NCBI RefSeq assembly: GCF_000181795.1
Contig: NW_003526941.1
Location: forward strand, 10,417,068-10,481,067
Source of the DNA: Trichinella spiralis
Taxonomy: Eukaryota
Length of the DNA: 64,000 nt
Reading direction: 5' to 3'
The number at the start of each line of letters is the position of its first letter. The stretch's first letter is position 1. Below are positions 1 to 56,800 of the stretch, one piece after another. Both the position numbers and the translations under genes were made by a program. The notes beneath the pieces were generated by a model, which did not search any database, was not told the DNA's origin, and worked only from the letters and a program-made list of their open reading frames with translations.

Positions 1-648
1 TCAGTATAAACTATTTTTTATTATCCATATAATTTTGATACGCAGTGATAGCATTTCCGTTTATTTTTAGTAATCTGCGATGCTTCATGTTAATAATATT
101 TCATTTTAGGTAATTTTAGGGAAAAAATTTGCATAACAATACCATATTACGTAGTAATATGAAGTGTGTAAATAGAAACGTAATAAATTTCATCGTCTCG
201 TTTCATAATGTTGCTCGTATTGTTTATTTTAGTGCGCTATTACTGATGGAAAATTAGGTTGTTCTTCATGAAGCAAAGTAAATAGTCATTTGCATGATTT
301 TCTTATTATATAATTGTCCAAGCACATCGATTTTATTATGTTATTCAGTTCACTCCAATGCTATGAATCTAGCACGTGGTCAACTATAATTCCGCTCTTC
401 AACACCATCCATGAATAACTGGTAAGTTGGATTTGATATTTTGGTGGTGGCATGCTATGCATGTTACTTGACTTATATGGTGAATGGTAATTGGCGGGTG
501 TCTTTCTCGTGTAATTATTGCTAAGTTTTAGATACATCAGATGCTGAAGACGAAGAAGTATCTATTTCTGTTTTTTATTTATAGATGACTGCATTAATAT
601 AGTTCACTTTTAGAATTTACATTATTTTATATTCACATCAATGAATAT
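1..648. repeat. Left arm of a long inverted repeat (truncated by the window edge)
   Basis: 1-47 (tcagtataaactattttttattatcc...) is the exact reverse complement of 6601-6647. Pairing continues to about 648 (caatgaatat) with 6001. I saw only isolated mismatches in 1-480 and more in 480-648. Confidence 0.97.
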
Positions 649-1140
649 GAAACAACCAAATTCTGAAAACTAACTGAATATGGTAACTATGCATCATGAT
701 GAATATGCCTTGCTTTTTACTTGAATTTTTCTGTTAAATTTAGGTTGAAGGTTGCAGTGCTATTAGCGCCACATTCCTTTCATTCTAACTGCAGCACTAA
801 TGTTAAATTATCATGTATGTGATATCATAGATTATGTGCCTTTGATTCAATTCTTTTTAGAATTGAAAATTACATTTGCCTTGCAATTTGAAAATTTTGA
901 AAATGCCCAGATGCAATCTATTATCAGTGAAGTCAGGTAAAAGCTGTTGAACAGTGGTTGTTGGAGTTGATGACCTAGCGTTCAAAAACCATATGACAAA
1001 AAACAGTAAGTGTTGAATTTGTTTAAATAGATAGCAAGACGTTCTGCGTATTAGATATAGGTGGAATTTGGTGACTTCTGTAATTACAGATTACGTCATC
1101 AGCTGAGTTTTTATGGTGTTTCTTTTGCTCTGGGCAACTT

Positions 1141-2190
1141 GGTAAGTCATGTTCACATCATTTCGTTCTAAATTTGCCATCACAAACATCCGTAAGTAAT
1201 GAATTTGCTCCTGACTGCATTTGGATCGTACAGTGTTTGGTGCAGTGACGTTTCCAAGTTGTTCTAGTGTGGTTTCACTTACCATAAAAGTAAGATCGAA
1301 TGGATTGTAATTGTAGCAGATTTCGCTGAGTCAGCCGAGCAGCGTTCGTACAAATCCTGACAAGGTATTGGTGGTGCTTGTTGCTGTCAGTGCGTTTCAA
1401 ATGTGATATGACAAAAATTAGTGAGTAGCTTTTGATTATAATAGCTGTGGATTACGTCATCCCATGAAGCTTGTACCGTTTGCAACCCGTGATCGCATGG
1501 AGGTAAAGGCGTTTCCTAGCCGTCCCAGTGTGCCTTTGCTTATCACAAATAGTATCGTTCATCAGTAAGTATTGAATTTGATTAATTAGCTGGAAAATGC
1601 GAGTATTGAGAGATTGAATTTGAATATCTATCTGAACATGAATACATGAATATCTATAATAACATATACATCATAAGCTGAACTGTTTTCAAGTTCCTTT
1701 CGCTCTGGTCACCGTGCTTAGTCATGTTCACATCAGTTCGTTCTAAATGTGGCATCACAAACATCCGTAAGTATTTAACTTGCTCCTGATTGCAGTTGGA
1801 TGCGTAAAGTGTGCACATTTTATCCATGACAGCATTACATTAACATCAAGCGAATTCGACGTTTCCTCTGATGGCCCTCTGAGTTGAAGTTGACGCGGTG
1901 ACGTTCATCATTGGTACTAGTGTGGTATCACTTATCATAAGAGTTAGAAAGAAATAAATGATTGTAATTCTAGCAGACAACGTTGAGACAGTCGAGTAGC
2001 GCTGGTGCCCGTGTAGATCTTTCGTCAGTGCGCTTCCAATGTGAGATGACAAAAATTAGTAAGTAGTTTTTGTTTATAATAGCTGTGGATTACGTCATCC
2101 CATGAATCTTGTACCGTTTGCAACCCGTGTTCACATGGACGTAAAGGCGCTTCCTAGCCGTCCCAGTGTGCCTTTGCTTATCACAAATTC
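1141..2190. repeat. Diverged tandem duplication, period about 580-640 bp
   Basis: 1145-1230 (agtcatgttcacatca...cacaaacatccgtaagta) recurs at 1720-1805. 1386-1550 (gtcagtgcg...gtggattacgtcatcccatgaa...gtgcctttgcttatcacaaat) recurs at 2024-2188. Confidence 0.9.
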
Positions 2191-2610
2191 ACAAAGTTAA
2201 ATGAATAGAACAGGTATGTCGATGTACATCCCAGCATTTTGTTCCTGATAGCAATTTGTGAATATTTTAGTCGCAGCCGATGGCACTCAAATTGCGTTTC
2301 ATTCGGTTCTGATGTTTTTCTTTGTCACGCAAGGTAAGGAAGAATTGCATTATTTTTTGTAGGATAATTGTCTTTAATGTTTTAGTGCGTAACTGTGAAG
2401 ACGAGAGCCGCATCTTGAATGATCTCCATCGAATAACGTATTATGCTGCTGTTATTCGTCTTCAATTACTTTTTATAATATGGCTGTAATTTGGTATATA
2501 ACTATATTCAATTATGAATTTTAGAATCATGGCATGTTTATATTAAATTCTTCATTTAGAGCAGTAGAGAGCGTAAAGTACTGGTACGTAGCATCAAGGA
2601 AAGTGGACAA

Positions 2611-2880
2611 AGTAATGCAGGTAAGTACAGTGGAAGCGGATATATTAATGTGATTGCGTACAGGTAATTGGATTGCAGGTAAGTACAATAACGTAGGGTG
2701 CAGGTGAGTAAAATGTGCAGGTAAGTATATAAAGAAGAATGATATCGTAGATTTAAGAGAGATAGCGGAGAGGTAAAGGTAAGTATGAGGTGAAACTCTA
2801 CGCTGAGTGGAGTACGGGAAAGCGTAGTTAAGTAGTAAGGTAAATGCAGAACATGTAAGTATCGAATTGCAGGAGTAAGA
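2611..2880 (+). repeat. Purine-rich array of 5'-splice-site-like motifs (CAGGTAAGTA and variants)
   Basis: caggtaagta at 2618, 2676, 2718; caggtaattg 2661; caggtgagta 2701; aaggtaagta 2776; aaggtaaatg 2837. Confidence 0.8.
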
Positions 2881-3440
2881 AGCCTGGGGATGAATTATGT
2901 AAATTTTCGAAAAAAAACACCTGAGGAAATGCCCTGGGCATAGCCTGAAAGCAAATAAAAATTTGCATATCCCCCTGAAGGCAAATATTGTGCATTAAAA
3001 TGCTTCAGGCGTAGCCTGCGGGAATATGCAAATTTTTATTTGCCCTGAGGCATAGCCTGAGGCGATGCCTGCGGCTAAATTTCAAAAAATTTCAAAATTT
3101 TCAAAAAATTGCCTGAGGCATAGCCCCAGGCGTAGCCTCAGGGCATATAAAATTTGCATATTACCCTGAGGCAATTAAAAATTTGCATAAAAACCCCCTT
3201 AGGTCAAATATTGTGCTATAATTTGCCTGGAGGATAGCCTAAGGGCATATGCAAATTTTTATTTGCCCTGGGGCATAGCCTGAGGGCAAAGCCTGGGGCT
3301 ATATTTTAAAAAATTCGAAATTTTCAAAATTTTGCCTGAGGCATAGCCTAAGGCGTAGCCTGAAGTCAAATAAAAATTTGCATATTGCCCATAGGCGATT
3401 AAAAATTTGCATATTTTATTAAATAAATCGCCTCAGGCTT
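2881..3440. repeat. Quasi-palindromic tandem repeat (~190-223 bp units) built from GCCN3-4GGC and ATTTGCAT motifs
   Basis: gcctgaggcatagcc at 3111 and 3334 (period 223); a shorter unit starts about 2920. A perfect 20-bp inverted repeat links 2951-2970 and 3024-3043. Octamers at 2961, 3026, 3152, 3181, 3249, 3376, 3405. Confidence 0.92.
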
Positions 3441-3479
3441 TTTAAAATTTGTAATTTCAATGTGCACATCTACATAATA

Positions 3480-3895
3480 TACCGTACCATTCACAACTTA
3501 CCTTCACAATTATACTTGCCTTCACTCTATGCACTACTTACCTTTCCACTTATACCTACCTTCACATTACTTACCACTTACCTTCCCCTATGCAGTACTC
3601 ACCTTCACAATTATACCTTCACCCTAAACACTACTTACCTTTGCACTTTTACTTACCTTCACCCTAAACTCTACTTACCTTTGCACTTATACTTACCTTC
3701 ACCAAAAACACTACTTACCTTCACACTTATACTTACCTTCACAATTATACTTGCCTTCACCCTATGCAATATTTACCTTCACACTACACACTAACTGCCT
3801 TTACCTATGCAGTACTCACCTTCACATTTATACTTACCTTCACACCTATTCTTACCTGACTTACCCTTAACTATTTATCTTCATACTTACCCATA
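3480..3895 (-). repeat. Pyrimidine-rich minisatellite (~18-22 nt unit, tacttaccttcac); reads gtgaaggtaagta on the minus strand
   Basis: tacttacctt at 3632, 3650, 3672, 3690, 3712, 3730, 3831 plus degenerate copies. It is the inverted counterpart of 2611-2880. Confidence 0.9.
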
Positions 3896-6000
3896 GTCTG
3901 CTTCCTTGTCTTTTTAGACTTAGACTTTTTAGACACTACGCTATTTACTTAGCCATGTTGCCTTTAACTGACTCTCTGAATCCATAACTAAAATGAATTC
4001 TTACATAAAAAAATGAAATCCTGAAAACACTGTAAACAATAATTATAAAAAATTATAAAAAGCAATTATGAAAAAATTATGAAAAGCAAAATTATAAAAA
4101 CCTGAAAAACTAAAACGACAAAATTTACACTTTTCAACTTTCATAGCTTATAAAAGTAAAATGTACATACGTCGCCAAACTGAGCGGCATCAACTGGTGG
4201 TAGTGCTTTGTGATGACGTATTTATCGACGTGATTACGAATCTTTGTGAAGACACTACATGTTCAATAACGGATAGCTACCAAAGAATACAGCAATTTCA
4301 TTCATCTATAACTAAACTTAATTTGATTCTGAAAATATTTGCAAAACAAGTGTGCTGAAAAGTAAAGCATGTTAAACAAAATTGATATGAAACAGCCATA
4401 TTATAAAAAATTAATTGAAGACAAATAACAGTGCATCGTCGTTCCTTAATTACTAAGTATACAAATTTGTAGAAAAACTACTTGCTAGTCATACAACATT
4501 TGTCCTTCAGGATGCAAGCATCTGAACAGCTACGCGCTGAAATTTTCAATTAAACATCCTAAGCATGTGATAAGCAACACCGCAGTGTAAATGAACACTA
4601 TCACTCATCAATAAACAAAATCTCTACTTACAAAATACTAAAACTTACCTACTCACATAATACTTTACAAAAATACTCACCAAACGCACTGAAGGCAACA
4701 CGCACTACCAGACTTGTATGATGTATCCGAAAACCAGTGCAAATCGACTATATTCACGATATATGCTACTATTACAATCATTATTTAATTATATCGTACT
4801 CCTATAATAAGTGAAGTCACACAGGTTTCTGGACCAATACTGGGTAACGTCATTGAGCCAACCTATACTAACGCAGGAGTATGAACGTATATCTGTTCGA
4901 TGTCGATGACGTAATCCATTCCTATAATGGGCAAAATGTGTACTTATTTTTGTGATGGCACATTTAGAACGCATTGTGATAAAGGTGACATACCATGTTG
5001 GCAAGAGCAACAGGAATTCCAAAAAGTTTCAATTATGTTGACGCACACTATTTAATTCGATAACAAGAAGCACACAGGATCAAATATAAGTGGAATTAGA
5101 AGACATTAATAATAGTAACAGATTACAGATAGTCAATTACTTACAGACTTTTGTACATCTTTTCAATCCATTGAAAGAAACCTGAACCACCATTAGAGAA
5201 AGACATTCAAGTTTATAGAAATAATTCCACTGCACTGACACAACCCATTGCTATAACAAAGTGCATAAAATTCATTCTTACTGTAACAATGAAGAAAACC
5301 AGAAAGCGGAACTGTTGAGACACATGATTGATCAATGTAGAAACATGAACACAGCAATAGTCAAACTAAAAAATAGATACTAAATAACACAGCAAAATGA
5401 AAAATTGGATAACAAAATGAATGAAATTCAAATATCATCGTGATGCACTGTTATTCGGCTTCAATCACTTTTTATAATACGGCTGTTTCTCATAAGCACT
5501 ATTTCAACCGCTATCATGAGTTCATATAAAGCACACGCAACCTAATATATAGAACAGAAATAAATATAGTTGCATTACCTCCTTGATGATATACCAATGA
5601 AGACAATTCAGAAAAAAAATTGAAATTATTTAATAAACAATTAGTGTCATACAAACAGAATATTTTTTACCTACACTCTTTCCAAATATTGCATTGCATT
5701 ATCTTGTACATCTAAAAAGCTATATTTCTAATGTAAAATTCAAATTTAAAATTAACTAAAATCAAAGGCAACGAATCTACAATATTACTTACATTGAACG
5801 TACGAATACAATAACAGACGTGCTGCTGATGGCGTTGCTAACTTACAATCCAAATATCTCGCAAATAATCATTTTGCGCACCTGCTTCTTAGCCATCATT
5901 TTTATTGAAATTTCACGGGAATAAACAAAATTGCAAATCAACTGCAGATGAAAATAATTATGATGCATAGTGGCATCATCTTCTCATGATAGGATTTTTT

Positions 6001-6647
6001 ATATTCATTGATATGAAAATAAAATAATGTAAATTCTAAAAGTGAATCATATTAATGCAGTCATCTCTAAATAAAAACAGAAATAGGTACTTCTTCGTCT
6101 TCAGCATCTGATGTATCTAAAACTTAGCAATAATAACACTAGAAAGACACCCGCCAGTTACCATTCACCATATAAGTAAAGTAACATGCATAGCATGCCA
6201 CCACCAAAATATCAAATCCAACTTACCAGTTATTCATGGATGGTGTTGAAGAGCGGAATTATAGTTGACCACGTGCTAGATTCATAGCATTGGAGTGAAC
6301 TGAATAACATAATAAAATCGATGCGCTTGGACAATTATATAATAAGAAAATCATGCAAATGACTATTTACTTTGCTTCATGAAGAACAACCTAATTTTCC
6401 ATCAGTAATAGCGCACTAAAATAAACAATACGAGCAACATTATGAAACGAGACGATGAAATTTATTACGTTTCTATTTACACACTTCATATTACTACGTA
6501 ATATGGTATTGTTATGCAAATTTTTTCCCTAAAATTACCTAAAATGAAATATTATTAACATGAAGCATCGCAGATTACTAAAAATAAACGGAAATGCTAT
6601 CACTGCGTATCAAAATTATATGGATAATAAAAAATAGTTTATACTGA
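6001..6647. repeat. Right arm of the long inverted repeat (partner of 1-648; probably continues past 6647 with a partner outside the window)
   Basis: Direct reverse-complement match to 1-648, checked by eye. Confidence 0.97.
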
Positions 6648-9600
6648 AAATAGTTACGAAAATAAAATTCTTTTCCAGATTTATGGAAAATTGAACAGTT
6701 GTCATGAAATTTTATGATGATAACTGCGACAGAAATTTTATAATATACAATTTATCTCATCACAGATTTTAACAAGTACGCATCGTAGACATCATGATGG
6801 TAAGTGGCTGCACCAGTGGGTATGCTACTTGAAAGCTTATTTACTATTAAAATTTTGTTTAAACTGAACTTTTGCTTACACCTTATGATGATTTATAGTA
6901 AACCCGCAAACATGGTTGAGCTCTGCATCAGCGCGCCACATACAATGTGGGAAAAACTCTAATCGCAGAAATTAAGTAACTCAACGATTTGCAATAAATT
7001 CAAGAAACTTATGCGGGTGATAATTCTGTATTGGATTTTATGAAAAGAATAAAACAAAAGAATCACGAGTAGCCTGGATTTGGTTATATTGCTAGTCGAT
7101 AACAATTATGAGAAATTAGATTTATATGAGATGAAAACAGCTAAGTGCTGTTCATTCAACTCGAAACAGGGGGTGGGCAGCATTTTCAGTTGAATGCGAT
7201 CTCTGTTCAGCTTAGTATTATTACGAGCTCAATGATGGGGATCATTAGAAAGGAAAGGAGGGCGGGACAGCATAGCAGGAAGGATTGAGGGAGAAGATGA
7301 AGGATGGAGGAGGTGGAAGTTGTCATATGCGTTCTTCCACTCAATCTTCGCGTATAATATTCAGGCGTTCCTTCATTTATCAATACTGGCAACATTGATG
7401 GGCATTGAGTTATTTTCTCAATGACAGAAAATAGGTGCATCTGTATAAGTCAGTGCTATTGGCGGTACAATGACATAATAGAAACTTTAAGGGGTCATTT
7501 GAAAAATGAAGGGAACGTTACTGCCATTCTAAAAGTATCAAAGGTGGTAGTATAAAGGTGTGTTCACTAGCTAACAGCAGCTTTCCTATGTCATGCTGAA
7601 ACAATGTTGTGCACGATTTGAGCAGTGACAAGCATTTAGGGGTGCAATAGTGCCACTGCAGTATCCTGGTGACAGACATTTCCTTTAAACATCTGGGCAA
7701 GTATGTTACCTTAGCAATAAACATTACAGTGGGCAGTAAAGATAATGCGGGAGGGGTTCAACTGCTATGTCAGAGTACTACTTTACAAATGGATTTGTAA
7801 GGACTATTGAAAATTATAGCAAAATATACCATTAGTACTATTATATAATGGCTTGGCCGTAATAAAGTCTCGAATATTATTTGAACATCATTACTGAAAA
7901 ACAACGCGCTAGTTTCCATTCAAAAAGACTAAAATCAAACAACTACGAAAAGCTTAAAAAGCGCGCATGTTTAGTGCAGTGTGCCAAGAGAAAGAAAGAA
8001 AACATTGTATGAAAAATAGCAAATATATGAAAATTCATACCTGTCAGGGATAACGTATAAAGCAAACGTAGAGTCAAACACTTTATAACTGATGTTCGTG
8101 GTTTCTTCATATTTTTAGTCTAACAATCACAACGTATTTGTTGAACTGAACCATGAAAATGACTGAATAACGCAACGCAGTAAGTAATTAGACCGCCCTT
8201 CAGCAGCGAACATTTATACTATAGTGCAGTTCTCTCAATAAACAGAAATTTATATAAGGAACATTGCTACCGCATTTGAATAGCACAAAGTGCACGTAGC
8301 GGAATGCCAACGGCAGTGCTTACCATCATATTAGCATAAAGTTATTCTGCTGACCTAGAAATGCATGTATGCCTTGAAAACGTATAATAACAATCTAATG
8401 AGTCAACACCAAAGATTATAATAATCAAAGCCACTATCTATCACAAATAATATTGTGGCGTAAATTAAAGAAGTATAAAATAGTGTCTTACGTAAATGGG
8501 GCTGCACTGGCACGATAATAATATGTCGCAATATTCAGCAAAATTCATTCATTAATTTAAAGGAACTGATTGTTTAGTGAACATTTCAATCAGACTTTGA
8601 TCAACCACTTTGAAAAGAAGAAAAATGAATGCCTAAAACAGAAGAATGGCAAAACATAACATTTACTTAAAACACAAGCATAATGAATTGATAATTTATA
8701 TAATGCACATACTGGGTTGAAGTACTAAAAATTGTGCACCACGGTTGTCACTTTAGTCAGTGTGGAACCGGCAAAATTGTTATCTTATATGCATGGACAA
8801 AGTACAGAAGCAAATTATTAAAAATTTATAGATCTTGCCCCCTCAAACTTTACAAGAGTTTGCACTCCCCCTTGTCTGAGGGAAGGGAGCTTCACGCTCC
8901 AGGATGGGGCCCATTTTTGGTCTCTCCATCCTCCACCTGTTTTAAATATTTCAAGTCCCACTCCCGGCATGATTCTATGCAACCTACCTACCTACCATCC
9001 GTTCATTCGCTCGTGTTAGCTACTGCAAAGGTGATTTTCGAAACACCATATTTTAATAATAAATAAACAATGCGTACAGAGTGTATTTCATCATACTTAA
9101 TTGTACAGAAATTTGATGTTCATTAAATCACCAATCATCTCATATGGAGAATTCATAGAGAATATATTGGGAAATTATACTGAATATCGATTCTCAATTG
9201 CAGTGGTAAGTGATTAAGACTTAGAAATGAAAAAATTGCCACTTACTGCTAAATGCGTTGTCGTCTCATTGTTGATGTTCATGCTGTTTGAATGTTGATT
9301 GAAAAATTACTTTTCAGAAATTATTCCAAAAAATAATAATGAATAAAAAGCAAATCTAGTGTTTGGCGTTCAATGTTGGTCTTCAGTCAATTTTCCAATC
9401 AAAACGCAGTGCATCCAGCCACGGACGGGGTCAAACTAAAATTATTTCCAATATGTCAATAAAGCAAATCAACTCGCATGCAAATTTTCATTTTATTCAT
9501 TGCTGCTGACAAATGTGACTAGTGCATATTTTTCCTTGGGCTTTATATACTTTGGAAGGCACCTTGTTTAGGAGAAAATTTTATTGTAGCCCTGCCAAAC

Positions 9601-11971: not shown

Positions 11972-14900
11972 TCAGCGGACGACGCTTTGCAACGACGCCG
12001 GAGCCAATGATACGTGCATCTGAGCGGTCGAGCTAGCACCAGCGTAACAATCGTTTATCGAATTTTCGTGTAGCTTTTGCAACGATAAATGGCAAGACGA
12101 AGATGAAGACGACGTATCACCATGGTAAGGCGGCGGTGGAGGCATCAAAAATTGACACTGGAGCAAACTGGATACTGAACCACAGTCGGATACCGAAGCG
12201 CTTGCTACTTCGACTGTTTCTGTTGCTTTGGTCGTCTGTGGTGGCGGCGTTGGCGGCGGCTTTTGCAACTGCAGATGACGATGCTTCTTCTGCTGTTGCA
12301 CAAATGATTCGTGCCAGCTAAGTGGACGCCCAGTGATCGGCGGTTCGAAGGTTCCAAATTGCGAAACTGCTGCCTGCTGATCAGCGGTCATCGCTTCTTG
12401 GCAACAGTACTCGCCCGTGATGTCGTCGTCTAAATTTCCGGCCATCGACAAACGCCTCGACACAGGCACTGACCACTGTCCCGCGGCACTGCTGCCGGTG
12501 CTGTCCAGTTCGCTAATGCTGCAACAGTTCGCCGACGACGAATGCAACGACTGATCACTGCACAGAGCTCGAATTAAAGGCAAATCCGCCGCCTGGGCCT
12601 GGATCATGCTCTTCACACGATCCAAGTCGATCGCGGGCATTTCGCAGTGCTCTTCTTGACACGCATCACAATAATGCGTCGACGTTGACGAACATCCACT
12701 GTCCTGGTAACGGTTAGCTATTGTAGAAGGGAGCAATTCAGATGAGGATATTGACACCGCCTGGCCCAGTCCCAAATTGACAGCATGTTTAGCACGCAGT
12801 CGGCTGAAACTGATCTCACGACCTGAACCCAACGCTCCACCGTGCCGATAAGAAGAAGTGGAATCCTGCAAACTTTGCGTCCTACTGACAATAGCTGAAC
12901 CGTGTAAAAAATGCGACGAACAACCACCACCACTACTAGCTGATGAATTTAATTCTTTACATTCCGCATAACTGCAGGGTATTGTCGATTTATACTGTTG
13001 CTGTTGTTGCTGTTGTTGTTGTTGATGATGATGGTTAACGTAAGCTGCTGGTGTATATGCAGCTAAATCACATTCGGCTGTCGTTGTTGTTGTCGGTCCG
13101 GACAAATAAGCGGATAATGATCTTTCTCGATAAAAAGAGTCGTTTGAAAATATATCATACTTCTTGTAAGGTCGTCGACAATTTTCATCTGACATCGCGC
13201 AACTGCCGATCGATGACGACAGACGAGCGTCCAAACCAAGCCCGGGCTCGCTTTGAGCCTGCTGCAACGGTTGCCGTAGCTGATCATTCCGCTGTCGCAA
13301 ATATTCATTCTGCTCATTATTATTATTATTATTATTATCATTCCATTTGCACTGCACCGATATGCTGCTGGTTGCCTGATTTAAAACGAAAGGATCGACA
13401 CAGGTGATCGTTGTCCAACGTTTGCCGTGCTGACGTTCAGCTTTTTGCCTGATCGCCTGTTCATAGTTGGGCAGTGAGCTGTTGCTGTTGTCCACATGAA
13501 GCGGCGTTGAACCGTAAGCTGACGACAATGCGTGAGAAGGCAAATTGGACAACGATACGGACTGCAAACATTCGCTCGCGGTACTGGTAACCATTGGTCC
13601 AGCATTTACCGGTGCCATACGCCTCTGATATCGGCTGTCCATCATCGGATAATTAACAGATGCCGTAGTACACTGCTGTTGTTGTTGTTGCTGCTGCTGC
13701 TGCTGCTGAGGCTGTTGTTGTTGTTGTTGTTTTGGCTGAGCACAGCAGGACGCATCTTGACAACTTCCAGCTGACGCTGAAGCTAATTTGTTGCTACCCA
13801 TTCCACCGGTTGGTATCCAATTCATGTAGGCGCGTTGCGCCAAGTTGCAGTTTCGGTCCGCGGTGGGTTGACAATCGGCGTTGTTGAACAACGTCCGTCT
13901 CCGGATGTCTGAAATGTCGACCAGTGAATTTTTCACATTCAAAGCTAGCTGTTCACGGGTGCGCAGCTGACACCGGCGCAATTTTTCCTCCAGAGTTGCC
14001 AACGCGCTGGGCAAAATTGGATGCTGAATTTGGGCAGAATTCTTCACGGCACAATGCACCGGTTCGACATTATTGCTATTGTTGCTGCTGGCCGTTTTCA
14101 ATTTTGTATTATTACGGTCGGTGGTATCCGCCGCAACGCTTTCCGCGCAGGAACAAACCGCCTGCGATGTTGAACAAAATTCTCCCACTTCACCAGAACC
14201 GTCCGTAGACGAAGTTTCTTCTTCATCCGCATAAGTTTGCCGACTGACGAACGACACCTCGCTTCGGGCCGAATCACTGTGCACCAGTGGCACTTTCCCA
14301 TTGGCAGAGAAGTCAAATTCCAACAAGTCCGGGTCTGAGAGAGAGCGAGCATTCACAGGGATGTTCAAACGATCCTGTCGGTGACAAAGCTCACCATTGT
14401 CGTTTTCACTGTCATCAGGCGCCTGCTGCTTGTCCGACACAATGCCGGATGTAGTGTTGCTGCTGGCGTCGCTCACCAAACTGACACGTTGACCGGTAGC
14501 ATTGGACAAGTTGCTGAAATTTACAAAAAAGTTACACTCCAACACTGTAATATTGTCCAATAACTGTTCAATAATTAATTTATCATGAAAAATATCAATT
14601 TGAAAACAATCATTCCACTGTTTTCACAACTACTTCTCCACCACTATTATTCATTTCACACAGTACTACTACTACTACTTTGGTTGGTTTAGAAAATCTT
14701 TCCATAACAGATGAATATGTATAATTTTAAATTTTTGAAAAAAAAAAGAAAAACTACAAAAATAAACCAACTTCACATTCAACTATAACCAACTGAAAAT
14801 TCTCATTCCATCAAATCAGACTTTTCATCCACAACTAATTTATTTGTACGTGAACATCAAATAATATTATGGAAGTAAATTATACAGTTTTTGATACTTT

Positions 14901-17900
14901 TATTGGCGTGATAAACTATACATAATATATATAAAGTGAATTTAAGAAAAATTTTTTAACCATTTAAATTCCTCAATTAACGTCGAACTTAAGAAAGCGA
15001 TCAATTTACAACTGAAAAATCAGTGCGTTGATACTGATGCACAATGTAGAATATACGTAGAAATGAAATTGTGATCAGTGCCAGTGATCAGATAAAGCTA
15101 ATAACACTTATTAAATGAACACAACATTAATAATTAAGTTTAAATTAAATTTGAAATTAATGTTAAATATATTGAATAACAAAAGTTGCAAGTGCAATGC
15201 ACAATGTTCACAATATGCAATATTTATCCACTGCCACGACAAGTGAGAGAGAAAATGAGAGAATGATAGTTGTTAAAAAAGTGTTAGCCTTTATGAGAGT
15301 GTTGTCGCTGCTTCAAGCCCTAGTTCAGTCAAGTAATGCGTTACACGCTTCTGTCAATACGCAAATACTGGGTGACACTATCTACCAAGAATGACATCAA
15401 CCGGTTCAAAATTATCTACAAAGATGAACAACACTGGACATTGTTGACAACTGACAACTCAACCTTTGGAATTTTTAAAGTTGACAAATTTTTTGAAATT
15501 CATAAAATTCTAAATCTAATAAAACTAATGTAAATATAAATATAAGAAAAAAATTGGTCAATTATATAATCAATCGATTTATACGTACGGAAATATTTTG
15601 TCACATCCGTTACTGGTAATTTTACCATCGCTTGATTGAATCGACGTCTCACCATTACTAGTAGCAGTTGTACCATCAATTACGCCGTATATGGAACATT
15701 GTTTTTGTGCAATTTTACCATCTGTAAAAACAACAAATAAAACAGACTGTAAAATTAAAATCACTAAGTTTCTTCATCTTTTATAATAATTTTTCTACAT
15801 ATATATATATATATTATAATAAAATAGATTTTACGTGACAAGTTCGTTAGCAAGGTTGGGCAAGTAAGTATATGCAGCTAGTGCATTGCTCTGTGTTGTA
15901 GATAGAATGCACAGTTGAAATGCGTGCACTTATTTTCCAAAAGATGCAAAATTTTCAATTCAAAACTTACCACCACCATCTTGACAGTAATTGCCATTGC
16001 CAAGCGAACCAATGTCGACGTGCAACTTCATCAAATTCTGATGAAACATGCGACAAAAGTGGAGCAAATAGCGAGACTTTTGATCGCTGGATGTGTAAAA
16101 GGTGAGCTTGCGACCGTCGACGGAACAGATGAGAAATTTTCTTCGCTGAATAAAAAATAAAGTTAAATTAAATTAATAATAATAATAATAATTTTATAAT
16201 TTTACGTCAAAGGAAAGCTTGCTGATCCGTGCCCACTGGAACGAACCGAGCAACGCACGCGGATTGTCCTGCTTGGGTTCGAAGACGTCGATCCCAGCCG
16301 GTCCAATGCCCAGCAATATTGAATCGAACTGTTCCGATTTGGTTCGCTTCAGACGATACAGATGGACATTGACAGCCGACAAGCCGGTGCTGAGCTCTTC
16401 GCAAAAGCGATACCGCGCCTCCTGAGGATCCATGCCTTGACAGTCTCGGTGAACGGTCGGCGTGTGTCGACGCAGGAAGTGAACCCCGCGATATTCGACC
16501 ACCCAAGACGGAAAATACAATTCCGGTGAAAAGTAAACCGTACCGGCAGCCGTGTTTTCGTTGTAATCGCCAAAATCAGCTTGCAAAGCCAACGCGGTCG
16601 CCTCATAGCACTGCTCTTCGCGTACCCACTCAGGAGACCAGTAGACACGTAAATTTTCTCGCAACTGCATATAATAATGAAGCAATGCTATTGGACAACT
16701 GAAAAAAAAGAAAATTAAAATACCACCACAATTATCAATTTTGTACGTTATATAAGCTTGCAAAAAAAGTATTAGACCACAGTGATTTTTTCTCAATTTC
16801 CACACAGTTTTTTTTTACTTATTTATTATAATTTGATTAATTATTAGCAGTGATGGAATAATATTTTCATTCATTTATTCATTCATTCATTCGTTCGTTC
16901 GTTCGTTCATTCATGGGCAAATTTTTTCCTTTTTTGCCTTATTAAGTCAACCCAATTCTATCAAACAAATGTACTGAGAAACTGGAAAATTACGGTGGTT
17001 CCATTTTAAGATTGTTCACCTTCAACAATTGGAAAATTTATTCACCACCAACTCCAGCTGATGACAGACAACTAACTGTCTTGCATCAATCTTAACAACA
17101 GATGGAATCTCATCGTTTCCAGCATGGAACAAACAGGATGATGCGCGTCGAACAATTCTTGCGATGAAAAATTATACAATTGCAACCGCTATTTCACCTT
17201 TCGGCTCATTTGCAATATTACAAAACATGTATAGTGGGATAAAAATAAAAATTATAATCAACTGCCAACCTGATTCACAATACATGACATTGTACGAAGA
17301 ATTTTCCACTTGACTATAAATCAACTTCACCAGCAATAATAATGCATGCATAAATTATCTCAGCCAGCTTTAATCGTTTTGACTTGCAATAATACTTTCT
17401 TTGGTTTTAGCAAAACCAGAGTAAAACTGTAACTTTTATTATTTACTGCACAAACGCTTAACTCAAAACATCTAGCGTCAACTAAACTAACTACACGTTT
17501 TCCATGCTACATCAATCAAGAAATCACAGCATGTTTTTGAATTCCAAAAATAAAAATTTCCTTGCCAATCTGCTGTGAAAAAGTTGAAATTAAATGAAAT
17601 ATACCATGAAATGAGAACAAAATTGTCAAATGTTTGCTTGCGTACACACCACCCACATATCCCACTTGCAGTTTGCAGTTTTAAGTTGAAAAAAAACATA
17701 AAGTTTGGTTCATGCTAAACTTAACGTAAATAAATTCCCTGTGAACAACAACAGTAACAATAAATAAATCATCTGAAAATTGTTCATGCTATTATTATTA
17801 TTATTACTATTATTAATTTTCAGTCCACAGGCTATTTCAGTGCTGATCATGTGTAATATTTATTTATCATAAGGAAATTGTCACAGCCTGATTCGTCTCG

Positions 17901-43836: not shown

Positions 43837-47680
<3,844 letters not shown>

Positions 47681-53863: not shown

Positions 53864-56800
53864 TCATTTGATCGCGTTGACAATTTGATACCAAATATCT
53901 TTTTTGCATTTCTGCTGTTTACGCAACGTCTGCATGAAATTATGAAACTGACTCTCGCCGTCCGGCAAATAAGAGAACGCGGTTTTGGCCGTGCGAACCA
54001 AAGTGCACAAATCTTCGACGTCGTTGGCCAATATACGAGGCAAGCTGATCTTCTGCAACGCCACCCGGTAGAACGACGTCACCGTACAGCTGACCAAATT
54101 GTAAAAATACGGATCACTGTAGACAGGGGGCAAATATGGAGAAATGGCGGACGGGACGGAGGCGATCTTATTGGTCAAGAACGACGCCACGTCGGCGGTC
54201 AGTTCGTAAAAAATGAACGGACTGACCACGTAACGACAAGCTGCACTGCAGAAGCTCTGCACGTATTCCAAGCCCAACACTCTGCACACTTGCAGTAGCC
54301 ATTTCACGTCGTCACCGTAGGGCGGATTCGGAGAAAATTTCACATAGGTACGGTCTTCGGCATTTCGACGTTCCATCGTCTTCATCGCCAACATGCCGAC
54401 ACGGTACGCGGCGTGCAGGTAAAACGACGAGTTGCTGCTTTCCCGTTCCACAGATGTGCTGCCAGATGTATTGCCGTCAGTGGCTGCGACGACCAGATTG
54501 ATCGTCGGATCCGGTATGCCAAGCGACAAAATCGTCGGCGTTGTCAACTGGCCAGTGGGACCCAAATAGGCAGACATGCCAGGTCTGATCAGACCACCAC
54601 CTGGAATGGTCGGCGCGGGCGTGGTCAATCGCAGCCTCGGATTGACGCACATGTTCGAAACGTCGGGCCAGCAGATGGTCGGCGGTTGAGGTTGGTGAAA
54701 CAACGCCTGCGCGGCTGGCGCCGGCTGAAAAGGGCTATTCGGTAGCAACGGTACGTCGCGGAACACGTTGTAGCCAGTCTGCAAGCCGACTTGAACCGAA
54801 CCGGGCTGAGGCGGGGCTATTCGAATCAGCGGCGGCAGAACTGGATTGCCCTGTGGAGTGAGAATTGGAAACTGGGGCTGAAAGACATTGTCCGGTGTGG
54901 GAAACGCTGTACCGTAGCACATCAGCATCTGAGCCTGCTGGGCGTCCAGCATACCGTACGGATGACCGTGAGACGACAACGCCCCACTGGGCGTGGAAGG
55001 CATCGCCCTTTGACCGACCGCAGGTTCCACACCACCGGCAGGTGACGAAGTGGACGACGACGGTCCGGCCGAACTGAATGCCGCCGGCGAACGCTGCTGC
55101 GGCTCTTGCATGGGGCTGCCAGACGGACCCGAGCTGTCAACGTGAGCTGACCCTTCCGCAGTCGAGGTGGATTTTTCCGCATCCAACGCCCTTGTGTACA
55201 TTTCGTACCAAGTCTGCGCCACTTGGAACACCACATCCGGATAGATATCACTGGCCGCGGCCACTTGTTCAATAACAAGACAAGCACGTTCCAACATATT
55301 CTGGCCCTGGTCACGACACTGGGACAGTGCTCGTTGAATTTCGGCAGGACTGAGCCGGTGGGCGTAGTTCAACGCTTCCAAAGCCAACAACGCGGCCAAA
55401 CCCACCATGGTCTGATCGTGAGCCTGCGACGCTTTGTCCGCAATTGAAGCCACCTCGCTTGGCGTCAAATGATTCTGCCAGCTGTTGAACAAATAATCTA
55501 TTGCCGGCGGGCCAATTTCAGTCACTTGACTGCTGATCCAAGAGACGCAAGACGAATACGTTCGCGTGTACCAATTTGGCGAGATCTTATTGTGCAGTCC
55601 GATCGCGTGCAGGCCCACTTGAAATGCGAACAATTGCAACGGTCTGCAAACTGAAAAAAAAATGCCCAACAGTAAAAATTCACAAAACAAAAAAAATACA
55701 TAGTTCCTATGACTATGAAAAACCATTCTCTTCCACGTACCAACATTGGGTAGCGCTTGAATTGCGGCCGCAGGAGTGATAAATATTGCAGAAGAATGAG
55801 TTCCACCGGCTTCAGTTAAAATACGTTTTGCCAATTCCATCATAAAATGCACATGCGCTTCTGATGGTAAATCTGGATCTTGAATCCTGAAATGGAAGTG
55901 TTTTCAACGACGTTGACAACTGTACATAATTTCAAAACAAATTTCATTTTAAAAAAATGGATTATTTAGTCAAATTGTTCAATCAATAAATTATCAATAA
56001 ATTTAATCTGAAACTGATTTTTCTAATGAAAAAAAGAGAACTATTTATATATACCTTTGCGTTGAATCAGAAGGTGTGGATCCAGACAGTGCGGCATCAA
56101 TTACGGAATTTGGATCAGTGTTCAGTGCGAATGCCACATCAACGCTTATATCATAGTTGAGCGCCTGTACTGTACCGATAGTGTTGGCCAAATTGTAGCG
56201 CATGTTTTGATAATAAGAACCGGTGGTGTCCAAATAATTGCTCGGATATCGTTGCCTCGATTCGTCAATTACCGAAATCCTTTGATCGAATGAATTTTCG
56301 TCCGTCTGCATCCAACCGCCTTGAGTTCGCCTTGGATCATTTCTCAAGCTGACGTTTCTCACTTTTGCAGTTAAAGTATCAACAGAACTTTTAAAATTTT
56401 CAGAAGTTGTCCTATCCCCCCCACTGCCACCTCTCGATGAGCTTTCAGCACCAGTGTTGAAACCGTTTTCCGCAGAAAACGACTGATCATTTTCCTCACC
56501 ATACAGTATAAGTCTGACTTGAGATAAGATCGTATCCGGAGGATCAACCAATGATGCACCACCACGTACTGTAAAAAACAAATAAATTAAAAATCAGGAT
56601 AAAATACAATAATAATAAAAATAATAGTAACAATACCAGCTTCAACAACTCCAAGTCTGTCAGTTTGATAACGAATTTCGCAATAATTATTTTCCAACAA
56701 AGCATTCAACATTATAGATAAAACGTCAGTGTTGGTTTTGTAATGGCTAAGCAAGCTGAGTAAGAAGTCACCACGTTTTCGTCTCAACGATTCGAACAAC

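What the first reader, a model, noticed from the sequence alone, without database searches (positions are those of the whole stretch)
2881..3440. Dense, regularly spaced array of AP-2-type palindromes and POU octamers at the symmetry axis
Seen: about 15 GCCN3GGC/GCCN4GGC palindromes (e.g. 2931, 3042, 3055, 3067, 3111, 3123, 3135, 3237, 3265, 3278, 3291, 3334, 3346, 3387, 3430), often in runs spaced 12-13 bp apart. Seven perfect ATTTGCAT/ATGCAAAT octamers occur in inverted pairs, separated by A/T-tract spacers (ttcaaaaaatttcaaaattttcaaaaaatt). Known: GCCN3GGC (GCCTGAGGC) is the TFAP2 consensus and ATTTGCAT is the POU octamer. The GCC/GGC arms stay fixed while the N positions vary, which looks like selection for protein binding rather than simple slippage. 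Inference: a homotypic enhancer or bidirectional promoter, a transposase-binding subterminal array, or an origin/pairing-type element.
Basis: partly seen in the sequence, partly recalled or inferred. Interest (0 to 1): 0.8.

Follow-up and report, generated by a model that had tools for sequence, protein, structure and literature searches.

The report
Palindromic repeat hinge in Trichinella genomes
The motif array is real, but it is the centre of a non-coding, fold-back-shaped repeat found at many places in Trichinella worm genomes, so it is likely selfish repeated DNA, not a one-off gene switch.

Summary
All 15 GCCN3-4GGC sites and 7 octamers are at the stated places. Composition-matched simulations give about 1 and 0.25.

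The array is five copies of a ~100-112-bp monomer in alternating orientation. It sits at the centre of a decayed ~6.6-kb palindrome. It is flanked by two minisatellites of perfect 5' splice-site words that point inward.

The host is a Trichinella nematode. The locus is not unique:
- 920-1351 contigs per run, from four coded organisms, lie on the first 9 kb at 80-100% identity.
- 24 annotated "hypothetical proteins" of eight named Trichinella species are translations of the monomer, next to varying modules of this locus.

Within the locus the GCC/GGC arms and a 19-nt block around the octamer vary far less than the centres, linkers and A/T spacers.

Best reading: this is the middle domain of a modular, foldback-type (Tetris-like) dispersed repeat. 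Its conserved palindromic words are likely protein-recognition or hairpin modules. Splice joints read towards the centre, which argues against a divergent promoter. No binding, chromatin or small-RNA data could be obtained.

The parts
2881..3440 (.). Central array: five alternately inverted monomers. H1 2896-2997 (+), H2 2998-3093 (-), H3 3093-3204 (+), H4 3205-3317 (-), H5 3317-3440 (+). Each monomer has a half A/T spacer, three GCC-N3/4-GGC words 12-13 bp apart, the block GCAAATAAAAATTTGCATAT, and 1-2 further degenerate GCC..GGC words.
   Evidence: alignment A1; direct period ~221 bp: 2941-3189 vs 3162-3413 at 82%; inverted matches at 71-78%; single-strand DNA fold z = -10.5.
3077..3110 (.). 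A/T spacer with phased TTTCAAAA units (period 9-10). It is the centre of a local palindrome (arms 3031-3092 / 3094-3155).
3303..3333 (.). Second A/T spacer, centre of the local palindrome around 3316.
2600..2880 (+). Left minisatellite of consensus 5' splice-site words (GCAG|GTAAGTA). AGGTAAGT lies at 2619, 2677, 2719 and 2777, plus degenerate units. The words read towards the centre.
3480..3900 (-). Right minisatellite (period 18-20/40) of (G/A)AAG|GTAAGTA words on the - strand. It holds 10 AGGTAAGT, 13 of the window's 20 ACTTACC. The words read towards the centre.
1..652 (+). Outer left arm of the large inverted repeat. It runs off the window start. It carries AAAATTTGCATA at 124 and an intron-like joint at 180-232.
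   Evidence: (98.0% to 6647-5997).
5997..6647 (-). Outer right arm, the reverse complement of 1-652.
1077..2188 (+). Two tandem ~640-bp units of the left arm (1077-1550 and 1653-2188, 79-81% alike). Partial inverted counterparts lie in the right arm at 4733-5025.
1006..1089 (+). GT..AG joint (84 nt skipped) in contigs of 2 of 4 runs. Similar joints lie at 180-232, 1914-1973 and 2334-2385. They are intron-like and on the + strand, so the RNA would read towards the centre.
   Evidence: table 5. The end letters were checked by eye.

Best explanation
The array is the middle (hinge) domain of a non-coding, modular, foldback-shaped repeat that is dispersed through Trichinella genomes, and it likely persists and spreads as selfish repeated DNA and not as a single-copy gene switch.

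Shown:
- A ~100-112-bp monomer (A/T half-spacer, three GCC-N3/4-GGC words, a 19-nt block holding the octamer, and further GCC..GGC words) is repeated five times here in alternating orientation.
- Other copies carry the same monomer in direct tandem or in inverted order.
- Monomers sit next to varying combinations of the modules seen in this locus.

Inferred:
- History of this copy: an inverted duplication made a ~221-bp palindrome, which was later duplicated in tandem. The basis is 71-78% identity for inverted matches against 82% for direct matches.
- The nested palindromic words (GCCnnnGGC, GCAAAT-N4-ATTTGC, A/T-centred 60-bp arms) likely promote hairpin or cruciform formation and template switching. 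That would generate the direct and inverted rearrangements.
- The words are kept either as recognition sites for a dimeric DNA-binding protein that acts on the element, or as stems.
- Spliced non-coding transcripts that enter from the arms would carry the splice-donor minisatellites into the hinge and fold back on themselves. That would be a plausible Dicer substrate in a nematode clade that lacks piRNAs.
For: Structure:
- Monomer alignment.
- Direct and inverted self-matches.
- Large palindrome, 1-652 vs 5997-6647 at 98%, with symmetric but decayed inner modules.
- Single-strand DNA fold of -135.7 kcal/mol against -77.4 +/- 5.5 for shuffles; 0 of 100 shuffles did as well.

Multi-copy and genus-wide:
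- 1351, 1111, 920 and 1058 contigs from runs of four coded organisms lie on 1-9000 at 80-100% identity. Up to 14 distinct contigs cover one position. Depth is highest at 3001-3300 and 3601-3900.
- Two contigs 'go back' 427-440 bp inside the array, which indicates longer tandem forms.
- A contig of organism A at about 84% identity bridges the left splice-donor array and the start of the array (records 26-27).
- 24 of 24 retrieved NCBI hypothetical proteins map to 2905-3417 by tblastn. They come from eight named Trichinella species and mostly from different contigs.
- They hold 30 monomer instances, spaced 34 aa (102 nt) in direct tandem in some and inverted in others.
- Their flanks match other modules of this locus: 2569-2830, 3948-4305, 418-462, 6772-6941 and 7285-7350.

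Non-coding: no Pfam family on 20 ORFs of 1-14.6 kb, and there are stops in the monomer frame in the window.

Analogy: Tetris of Drosophila virilis is non-autonomous, with long inverted arms made of a flanking domain, ~220-bp tandem repeats and an inner domain around a non-coding middle domain, and it has many rearranged forms (PMC4079207: abstract and sections 10 and 17 read).

Constraint on words: arms 0.22, octamer block 0.16, centres 1.4, linkers 2.0 and A/T spacer 1.17 minimum substitutions per column.
Against: - No termini, target-site duplications or empty sites could be examined. The left arm runs off the window and no genome is held.
- No transposase partner is known. Mobility is therefore inferred only from dispersion and rearranged forms.
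- Protein-level copies are biased towards conserved, open-frame copies. Some may be spliced gene models, so adjacency of modules in a protein is not proof of adjacency in DNA.
- The runs are contigs of uncertain kind ('RNA?' is a guess). Copy number was not calibrated against a single-copy gene.
- The uneven conservation of the words fits a host transcription-factor platform as well as it fits element-level selection.
- Among the 30 cross-species instances, the centres of two GCC..GGC words are as conserved as their arms. Substitutions there do not concentrate in the N positions.
Confidence: 0.55

Rival explanations
1. Cis-regulatory platform. The array is a homotypic cluster of binding sites for host AP-2-like and POU/homeodomain-like factors. 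It would work as an enhancer or bidirectional promoter, either for this locus or as a repeat-borne enhancer at many loci.
For: - Exact matches to GCCN3/4GGC (15 sites) and to the octamer (7 sites). The AP-2 consensus is stated in PMC6418405 (passage).
- Arms and the octamer block are much less variable than centres, linkers and spacers.
- The monomer is almost invariant at the amino-acid (codon position 1-2) level across 30 instances from eight species.
- AAAATTTGCATA recurs in both outer arms, at 124 and 6513.
Against: - The 4 GT..AG joints listed in the left arm lie on the + strand, and 14 of the window's 17 AGGTAAGT words flank the array pointing inward. The detectable RNA structure therefore reads into the centre, not out of it.
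- Conservation spans a 19-nt block, not the 8-mer.
- Sites abut with 3-bp linkers.
- The element is dispersed and rearranged like selfish DNA.
- No chromatin, binding or start-site data exist here. Whether the genome encodes AP-2 or POU factors was not tested.
Confidence: 0.15
2. Selected hairpin-RNA locus. The palindrome is kept because read-through transcripts fold into long double-stranded RNA that Dicer cuts into siRNAs. These would silence the dispersed copies of the same family. On this reading it is a host defence locus and not merely one more copy.
For: - Very stable fold of the array (z = -10.5). The RNA fold of 2560-3560 pairs the two splice-donor arrays across the hinge (no shuffle control).
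- Intron-like joints suggest the arms are transcribed towards the centre.
- Nematode clades without piRNAs are thought to rely on Dicer products of dsRNA against repeats (passage of PMC9071541).
Against: - No small-RNA data could be read. The supplements of PMC3212509 are unreadable, so it is not known whether its candidate small RNAs map here.
- The inner arms are only 71-81% alike, which makes poor siRNA-grade duplex outside the outer 652 bp.
- Other copies have the monomers in direct order, so the hairpin form is not a constant feature of the family.
Confidence: 0.12
3. Two ordinary element copies lying tail to tail. On this reading the 'array' is simply their abutting subterminal transposase-binding repeats, with no special hinge.
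For: - Each arm carries the same ordered modules pointing inward.
- Short conserved words repeated in direct and inverted order are typical of subterminal regions of some DNA transposons (recalled, for example En/Spm and Ac; no call).
Against: - Five monomers alternate in orientation instead of forming two blocks.
- The direct 221-bp repeat at 82% identity is younger than the inversion.
- Other species carry monomers in tandem inside ORF-length stretches.
- No terminal inverted repeat, target-site duplication or transposase gene was seen in 1-12 kb.
Confidence: 0.1
4. Assembly artefact (a fold-back chimeric long read) or a chance cluster.
For: The palindrome touches the window's first base.
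Against: - Identity falls towards the hinge (98% outside, 71-81% inside). That is the opposite of a chimeric-read palindrome.
- Independent runs of four organisms and annotated proteins of eight species hold the array.
- Simulations never reach the observed counts.
Confidence: 0.01

Closest known systems
Tetris and other foldback (FB-like) transposons of Drosophila (PMC4079207; abstract and sections 10 and 17 read)
   Same: - Non-coding element with long inverted arms built of modules: an outer flanking domain, internal tandem repeats (~220 bp in Tetris, ~221-bp and ~640-bp units here) and an inner domain around a non-coding middle domain.
- Few 'complete' copies and many rearranged copies.
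- Tandem repeats whose number varies between copies.
- Present in several related species.
   Different: - Here the ~221-bp unit lies in the middle domain and is itself a palindrome of two monomers.
- The arms carry minisatellites of perfect 5' splice-site words and intron-like joints.
- Target-site duplications, true termini and any link to Mutator-type transposases were not testable.
- The host is a clade I nematode, not a fly.
AP-2 (TFAP2) sites GCCNNNGGC and POU octamer ATGCAAAT (AP-2 consensus: passage in PMC6418405; the octamer and the GCCN4GGC variant are recalled)
   Same: Exact letter matches, 15 and 7 of them. The palindromic GCC/GGC arms are conserved while inner letters vary within this locus.
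   Different: - Sites sit in a dispersed repeat, abut at 12-13 bp, and are part of larger palindromes.
- The conserved word around the octamer is 19 nt.
- No evidence of binding or of regulatory output.
Hairpin-RNA (hpRNA) endo-siRNA loci of Drosophila (Okamura et al. 2008, seen only as cited in passages of PMC3212509)
   Same: Long inverted repeat, probably transcribed, predicted to fold back strongly.
   Different: - The arms are mostly too diverged for perfect duplex.
- The family is multi-copy.
- No small RNAs are shown.
Palindromic AT-rich repeats (PATRRs) and other cruciform-prone palindromes (recalled, no call)
   Same: A/T-rich centre flanked by complementary arms. Size varies and the structure is rearrangement-prone.
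   Different: The arms here are made of G+C-rich short palindromic words plus a conserved 19-nt block. The family is dispersed and carries further modules.

Membership tests
Foldback-type transposon (FB/Tetris-like) | Long inverted arms around a non-coding middle domain | tested here: met
   (1-652 vs 5997-6647 at 98%, inner modules 71-81%). No Pfam family on the ORFs.
Foldback-type transposon (FB/Tetris-like) | Modular arms with internal tandem repeats of variable number | tested here: met
   Copy-number variants appear (joints that go back 427-440 bp or skip repeat units).
Foldback-type transposon (FB/Tetris-like) | Dispersed, multi-copy, with rearranged forms, in related species | tested here: met
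   (920-1351 contigs per run, four organisms). (24 proteins, eight named species, mostly different contigs, varying neighbouring modules).
Foldback-type transposon (FB/Tetris-like) | Defined termini with target-site duplications; insertion polymorphism | not testable with these tools
   The left arm runs off the window. No genome is held. Contig DNA of relatives is not retrievable.
Foldback-type transposon (FB/Tetris-like) | An autonomous partner encoding a transposase | not tested
   None was seen in 1-14.6 kb of the window. The genome was not searchable.
AP-2 / POU homotypic enhancer or bidirectional promoter | Matches to the GCCN3/4GGC and ATGCAAAT consensus, enriched over chance | tested here: met
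AP-2 / POU homotypic enhancer or bidirectional promoter | Conservation confined to the factor's contact bases | tested here: inconclusive
   Arms are more conserved than centres within the locus. However, the octamer is embedded in a 19-nt conserved block. Across 30 instances from other species, the centres of two words are as conserved as the arms (biased sample).
AP-2 / POU homotypic enhancer or bidirectional promoter | Transcripts diverge from the element | tested here: not met
   The 4 GT..AG joints listed in the left arm are on the + strand, so they read towards the centre. 14 of 17 AGGTAAGT words flank the array pointing inward. Contigs cannot show starts, so outward transcripts are not excluded.
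AP-2 / POU homotypic enhancer or bidirectional promoter | Protein occupancy, open chromatin, reporter activity | not testable with these tools
   No such data are reachable.
Satellite / minisatellite DNA | Head-to-tail tandem monomers in long arrays | tested here: inconclusive
   There are 2.5 copies of a 221-bp unit here. Contigs extend the tandem by one more period. Direct 102-nt tandems occur in other species. Kilobase-scale arrays are not shown.
hpRNA / endo-siRNA locus | Transcript spanning both arms and small RNAs from the duplex | not testable with these tools
   Only the fold is shown. Small-RNA tables are unreadable.
Spliced-leader RNA gene cluster (considered for the GGTAAGT arrays) | ~22-nt leader, splice donor, then an Sm site (AT4-6G) 20-50 nt downstream, per gene of ~100 nt | tested here: not met
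   Units are only 18-20 nt apart. The criteria come from a passage of PMC7986045. There was no Rfam hit.

The most novel reading that the evidence does not exclude
The family is a self-marking RNA trap. Convergent, spliced non-coding transcripts carry minisatellites of up to about a dozen maximal-strength U1 snRNP binding sites (AAG|GTAAGTA) into a hairpin-forming hinge that also holds AATAAA words on both strands. Stalled splicing complexes and blocked 3'-end formation would keep the RNA in the nucleus. The fold-back would feed Dicer, giving a piRNA-independent way to recognise and silence this repeat in a nematode clade that lost piRNAs. The conserved GCC..GGC and octamer words would be the stems and protein handles of that RNA/DNA structure.
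Probability: 0.08. Interest if true: 0.75.

Novelty: new variant of a known kind. Interest (0 to 1): 0.4.

Why it matters
- Annotation. At least 24 'hypothetical proteins' in the public records of eight Trichinella species appear to be translations of this non-coding repeat. They could be flagged as such.
- Repeat biology. The family seems undescribed in the papers I could search. Searches listed no Trichinella paper on such an element. Repbase and the supplementary repeat libraries of the two Trichinella genome papers were not visible to me. It combines three features not usually seen together: a hinge of nested palindromes with conserved words, monomers that occur both direct and inverted, and minisatellites of perfect splice-donor words.
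- If the conserved words bind a protein, or the splice-donor arrays bind U1 snRNP, the family would be a compact natural system. It could be used to study how a nematode without piRNAs recognises its repeats, or how repeats spread regulatory sites.
- Palindromes of this kind are also breakpoints for rearrangement. That is relevant to structural comparison of Trichinella genomes.

Tried and rejected
- tRNA scan: none.
- Rfam at gathering score: none in the window. At E<=1 on 1-12 kb there were only three sub-threshold miRNA-precursor hits on the array (35.8 bits against a gathering score of 100, and weaker). They reflect hairpins, not membership.
- Pfam on 20 ORFs of 1-14.6 kb: nothing above chance.
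- Own genome: not held.
- Earlier findings of this scan: nothing by place, by sequence or by words.
- Metagenome scan with a 24-letter word of the monomer: 0 matches.
- Sequencing-run search: no RNA holder listed. The runs laid are contigs of guessed kind.
Copy number relative to a single-copy gene therefore remains unmeasured.
- Supplements of the T. spiralis small-RNA paper could not be read. Whether its candidate miRNAs or siRNAs map to this family is unknown.
- Spliced-leader genes as an explanation of the GGTAAGT arrays: rejected, because the units are 18-20 nt and lack the leader-plus-Sm-site layout.
- A real repeat protein: rejected. The window's monomer frames carry stops. The annotated ORFs are short and heterogeneous, and they run through monomers of both orientations.
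- Telomere-like reading of GCCTAAGGC (nematode TTAGGC, recalled): only 4-nt half-sites agree, so it was dropped.
- Caenorhabditis pairing-centre motif arrays (recalled): no way to test chromosome position or the binding proteins, so the idea was not pursued.
- Strand bias of CCTGNGG (12 on +, 3 on - in the array): explained by the odd/even monomer history, not by strand-specific selection.
- Literature: searches. One search failed on term format and was not repeated.
Full report
**The observation**

Region 2881-3440 was read directly. A pattern count gives GCCN3GGC at 2931, 3055, 3067, 3111, 3123, 3291, 3334, 3346 and 3430. It gives GCCN4GGC at 3042, 3135, 3237, 3265, 3278 and 3387. ATTTGCAT occurs 5 times and ATGCAAAT twice in the region, which is 7 of the 29 in the window. 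All 5 GCCTNAGGC words and 12 of the 14 CCTNAGG words of the window are here.

In 5000 first-order Markov simulations with the region's own composition, the mean was 1.0 GCC..GGC site (maximum 7) and 0.25 octamers (maximum 5). The observed values are 15 and 7. Tandem Repeats Finder reports periods of 12-13 for the GCC..GGC runs and 9-10 for the A/T spacers at 3077-3110 and 3303-3333.

**Anatomy of the array**

The inverted-repeat list shows local palindrome centres near 2997, 3093, 3204 and 3316. Cutting at these centres gives five pieces. Taken in alternating orientation, they align with each other (alignment A1: 149 columns, 44 invariant).

Each monomer of about 100-112 bp consists of:
- half an A/T spacer;
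- three GCC-N3/4-GGC words, 12-13 bp apart;
- the block GCAAATAAAAATTTGCATAT;
- one or two more degenerate GCC..GGC words;
- in H3 and H5, a second copy of AAAAATTTGCATA.

The 'octamer' is the right half of a GCAAAT-N4-ATTTGC palindrome. AAAATTTGCATA is invariant in all 7 copies. It also occurs once in each outer arm of the large palindrome, at 124 and 6513, giving 9 occurrences in the window in all.

Self-BLAST gives a direct repeat, 2941-3189 against 3162-3413, at 82%. Inverted self-matches are at 71-78%. I infer that the inversion that made a ~221-bp palindrome is older than its tandem duplication. The excess of CCTGNGG on the + strand (12 against 3) follows from this odd/even history.

As single-stranded DNA the 560 nt fold at -135.7 kcal/mol, against -77.4 +/- 5.5 for 100 shuffles (z = -10.5).

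**The 'arms fixed, N variable' claim**

One search counted, over the three tandem words of the five monomers, the variable columns and the minimum substitutions per column for each class:

| Column class | Variable columns | Minimum substitutions per column |
|---|---|---|
| GCC/GGC arms | 4 of 18 | 0.22 |
| Centres | 8 of 10 | 1.4 |
| Linkers | 6 of 6 | 2.0 |
| A/T spacer | 12 of 18 | 1.17 |
| 19-column octamer block | 2 of 19 | 0.16 |

For arms against centres plus linkers, Fisher p = 1.8e-4. The same holds in the four direct-repeat pairs. Arms differ at 0-4 of 18 positions, and centres plus linkers at 4-7 of 16.

There are caveats. The five copies are related, and the classes are defined by the motif. 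The pattern is real within the locus. It fits recognition by a dimeric protein, and equally fits short stems with variable loops.

**Surroundings**

The array is the centre of a larger symmetry:
- 1-652 is 98% the reverse complement of 5997-6647. The left arm runs off the window.
- Inner modules are mirrored at 71-81%.
- The left arm has two ~640-bp units (1077-1550 and 1653-2188). The right arm has partial counterparts at 4733-5025.

The immediate flanks are minisatellites of consensus 5' splice-site words. GCAG|GTAAGTA lies on the + strand at about 2600-2880. (G/A)AAG|GTAAGTA lies on the - strand at about 3480-3900, with a period of 18-20. Of the 17 AGGTAAGT words in the window, 14 lie in these flanks: 4 on the left on the + strand and 10 on the right on the - strand. 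All of them point to the centre. AATAAA occurs three times on each strand inside the array.

There is no tRNA. There is no Rfam family at gathering score; at E<=1 there are only sub-threshold miRNA-precursor hits on the hairpins. There is no Pfam family on the ORFs of 1-14.6 kb.

**Host**

The window carries ZSWIM8, MCM5 and FERM-domain exons. The MCM5 piece is 88-89% identical to MCM5 of Trichinella sp. T9 and T. nativa, and 55-56% identical to Trichuris. The window is therefore nuclear DNA of a Trichinella species, a clade I nematode. No whole genome is held for it.

**It is a repeat family**

Twenty public runs hold part of 1-7000. Their kind is mostly unknown, and no RNA holder is on record.

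Four runs from four coded organisms were laid on 1-9000 at a threshold of 80% likeness. They gave 1351, 1111, 920 and 1058 contigs. Only 138-326 of these per run are at 99% or above; the rest lie between 80 and 99%. Single positions are covered by up to 14 different contigs. Summed depth peaks at 3001-3300 and 3601-3900 in all four runs.

- Two contigs 'go back' 427-440 bp inside the array, which indicates longer tandem forms.
- Several contigs skip units of the right minisatellite.
- Contigs of organism A at about 84% identity bridge the left minisatellite and the start of the array (records 26-27).

Of the 15 joints listed (out of 206), five are skips in the left arm. Four of those have GT..AG ends on the + strand and lengths of 52-84 nt (intervals 180-232, 1006-1089, 1914-1973 and 2334-2385). 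I checked the end letters. They look like short introns of an RNA reading towards the centre. However, the runs' RNA status is a guess, and contigs cannot show strand or ends.

Copy number is therefore unmeasured.

**Independent confirmation from named genomes**

An ORF over 2527-2994 (- strand) found two NCBI hypothetical proteins, one from T. patagoniensis and one from T. spiralis. Searching with the T. spiralis protein found 23 proteins, itself included. In all there are 24 proteins:

| Species | Proteins |
|---|---|
| T. spiralis | 2 |
| T. nativa | 1 |
| T. britovi | 6 |
| T. murrelli | 3 |
| Trichinella sp. T6 | 4 |
| Trichinella sp. T8 | 3 |
| Trichinella sp. T9 | 1 |
| T. patagoniensis | 4 |

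They lie mostly on different contigs. All 24 map by tblastn to 2905-3417 of the window. They contain 30 instances of one monomer translation...SGYAPGQIKICIFPQATPKAFYCTIF..., which is almost invariant. In that reading, A-x-G are the GCC-nnn-GGC words and QIKICI is the octamer block.

In some proteins two instances lie 34 residues (102 nt) apart in the same orientation. In others an inverted monomer lies between them.

Their other parts match different modules of this locus:
- the left minisatellite region, 2569-2830 (six proteins or more);
- 3948-4305;
- 418-462 of the outer arm;
- 6772-6941;
- 7285-7350.

One N-terminus spells the sequence that one search reported as the loose end before 8854.

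There are caveats. The sample is biased to conserved copies with open frames, and gene models may be spliced. In the window the same frame has stops, so I read these 'proteins' as translated repeat. In this sample, variation is not concentrated in the centres of the second and third words (28-30 of 30 identical). It does occur at the centre of the fifth word (K 22, Q 6), at a linker (T 23, M 4, I 2, D 1) and in the first word.

**What it most likely is**

It is a modular, non-coding, foldback-shaped repeat. Its parts are the outer flanking arms, larger tandem units, short-unit minisatellites, and a middle domain made of a ~102-112-bp monomer that can be duplicated directly or in inversion.

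The nearest described thing I could read about is Tetris of Drosophila virilis (PMC4079207: abstract and sections 10 and 17). Tetris is a non-autonomous foldback element. Its arms have a flanking domain, ~220-bp tandem repeats and an inner domain around a non-coding middle domain. It has few complete copies and many rearranged ones.

What is shown is the structure, the dispersion, the rearranged forms and the uneven conservation. The following are inferred:
- mobility;
- template switching at the nested palindromes as the source of direct and inverted duplications;
- protein recognition of the conserved words;
- fold-back of inward transcripts into Dicer substrates. The review passage in PMC9071541 says that nematode clades without piRNAs probably rely on Dicer products of dsRNA, and that Trichinella has 5-methylcytosine.

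Termini, target-site duplications and a transposase could not be examined.

**Rivals**

- A host or repeat-borne enhancer with AP-2-like and POU-like factors stays possible (0.15). In its favour are the letter matches and the conserved arms. Against it are the inward orientation of all detectable RNA signals, the 19-nt width of the conserved block and the selfish-DNA distribution.
- A selected hairpin-RNA locus (0.12) lacks any small-RNA evidence. The small-RNA tables were unreadable.
- Two tail-to-tail copies with subterminal binding repeats (0.10) does not fit five alternating monomers, nor the tandem monomers seen in other species.
- An assembly artefact is excluded, because identity falls towards the hinge and independent data hold the array.

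**Novelty and score**

Searches listed no Trichinella paper that describes such an element. The two Trichinella genome papers I opened treat repeats only in bulk (passages). Their supplementary repeat libraries and Repbase were not visible to me.

I rate it a new variant of a known kind. It is foldback-like, but with a palindromic-monomer hinge, conserved TF-like words and minisatellites of perfect splice-donor words. Interest is 0.4. The finding is real and tidy, it is useful for annotation, and it has one unusual feature (the inward-pointing U1-site arrays). No functional evidence is available.

Noticed in passing
window 2600-2880 (+) and 3480-3900 (-): Minisatellites of maximal-consensus 5' splice-site words hold 14 of the window's 17 AGGTAAGT. 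All point to the centre of the palindrome. As RNA read inward they would be arrays of strong U1 snRNP sites. Read outward they mimic the U1 5' end (recalled sequence).
   Followed up: partly
window 8854-8971: A G+C-rich ~118-bp segment has very high summed depth. It has the same two loose-end sequences on either side in several of the four runs. The sequence that precedes it in other copies is spelled by the N-terminus of a T. murrelli hypothetical protein that continues into the array monomer. It is probably another module of the same family.
   Followed up: partly
window 8218-8271 (-): A CT..AC joint skipping 52 nt appears in three of four runs. It is intron-like on the - strand, to the right of the palindrome, and would read towards it.
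   Followed up: no
window 11972-14560 (-): An 862-codon open exon is rich in poly-Q, poly-N and Ser/Thr runs, with no Pfam family. It probably encodes the disordered C-terminal part of the FERM-domain protein whose FERM exon lies at 16194-16805.
   Followed up: no
window 53864-58950 (-) and 43837-44670 (-): Large exons of ZSWIM8 (TPR and C-terminal domains) and of MCM5 (AAA-lid and C-terminal domain). These are ordinary single-copy host genes, and they served to place the window in Trichinella.
   Followed up: partly
window 4033-4100: An A/T-rich tandem repeat (AATTATAAAAA, periods 11-24) lies just outside the right minisatellite.
   Followed up: no
NCBI records behind P0122-P0145: 24 annotated 'hypothetical proteins' of eight Trichinella species look like translations of this non-coding repeat, so they are probably annotation artefacts.
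   Followed up: partly
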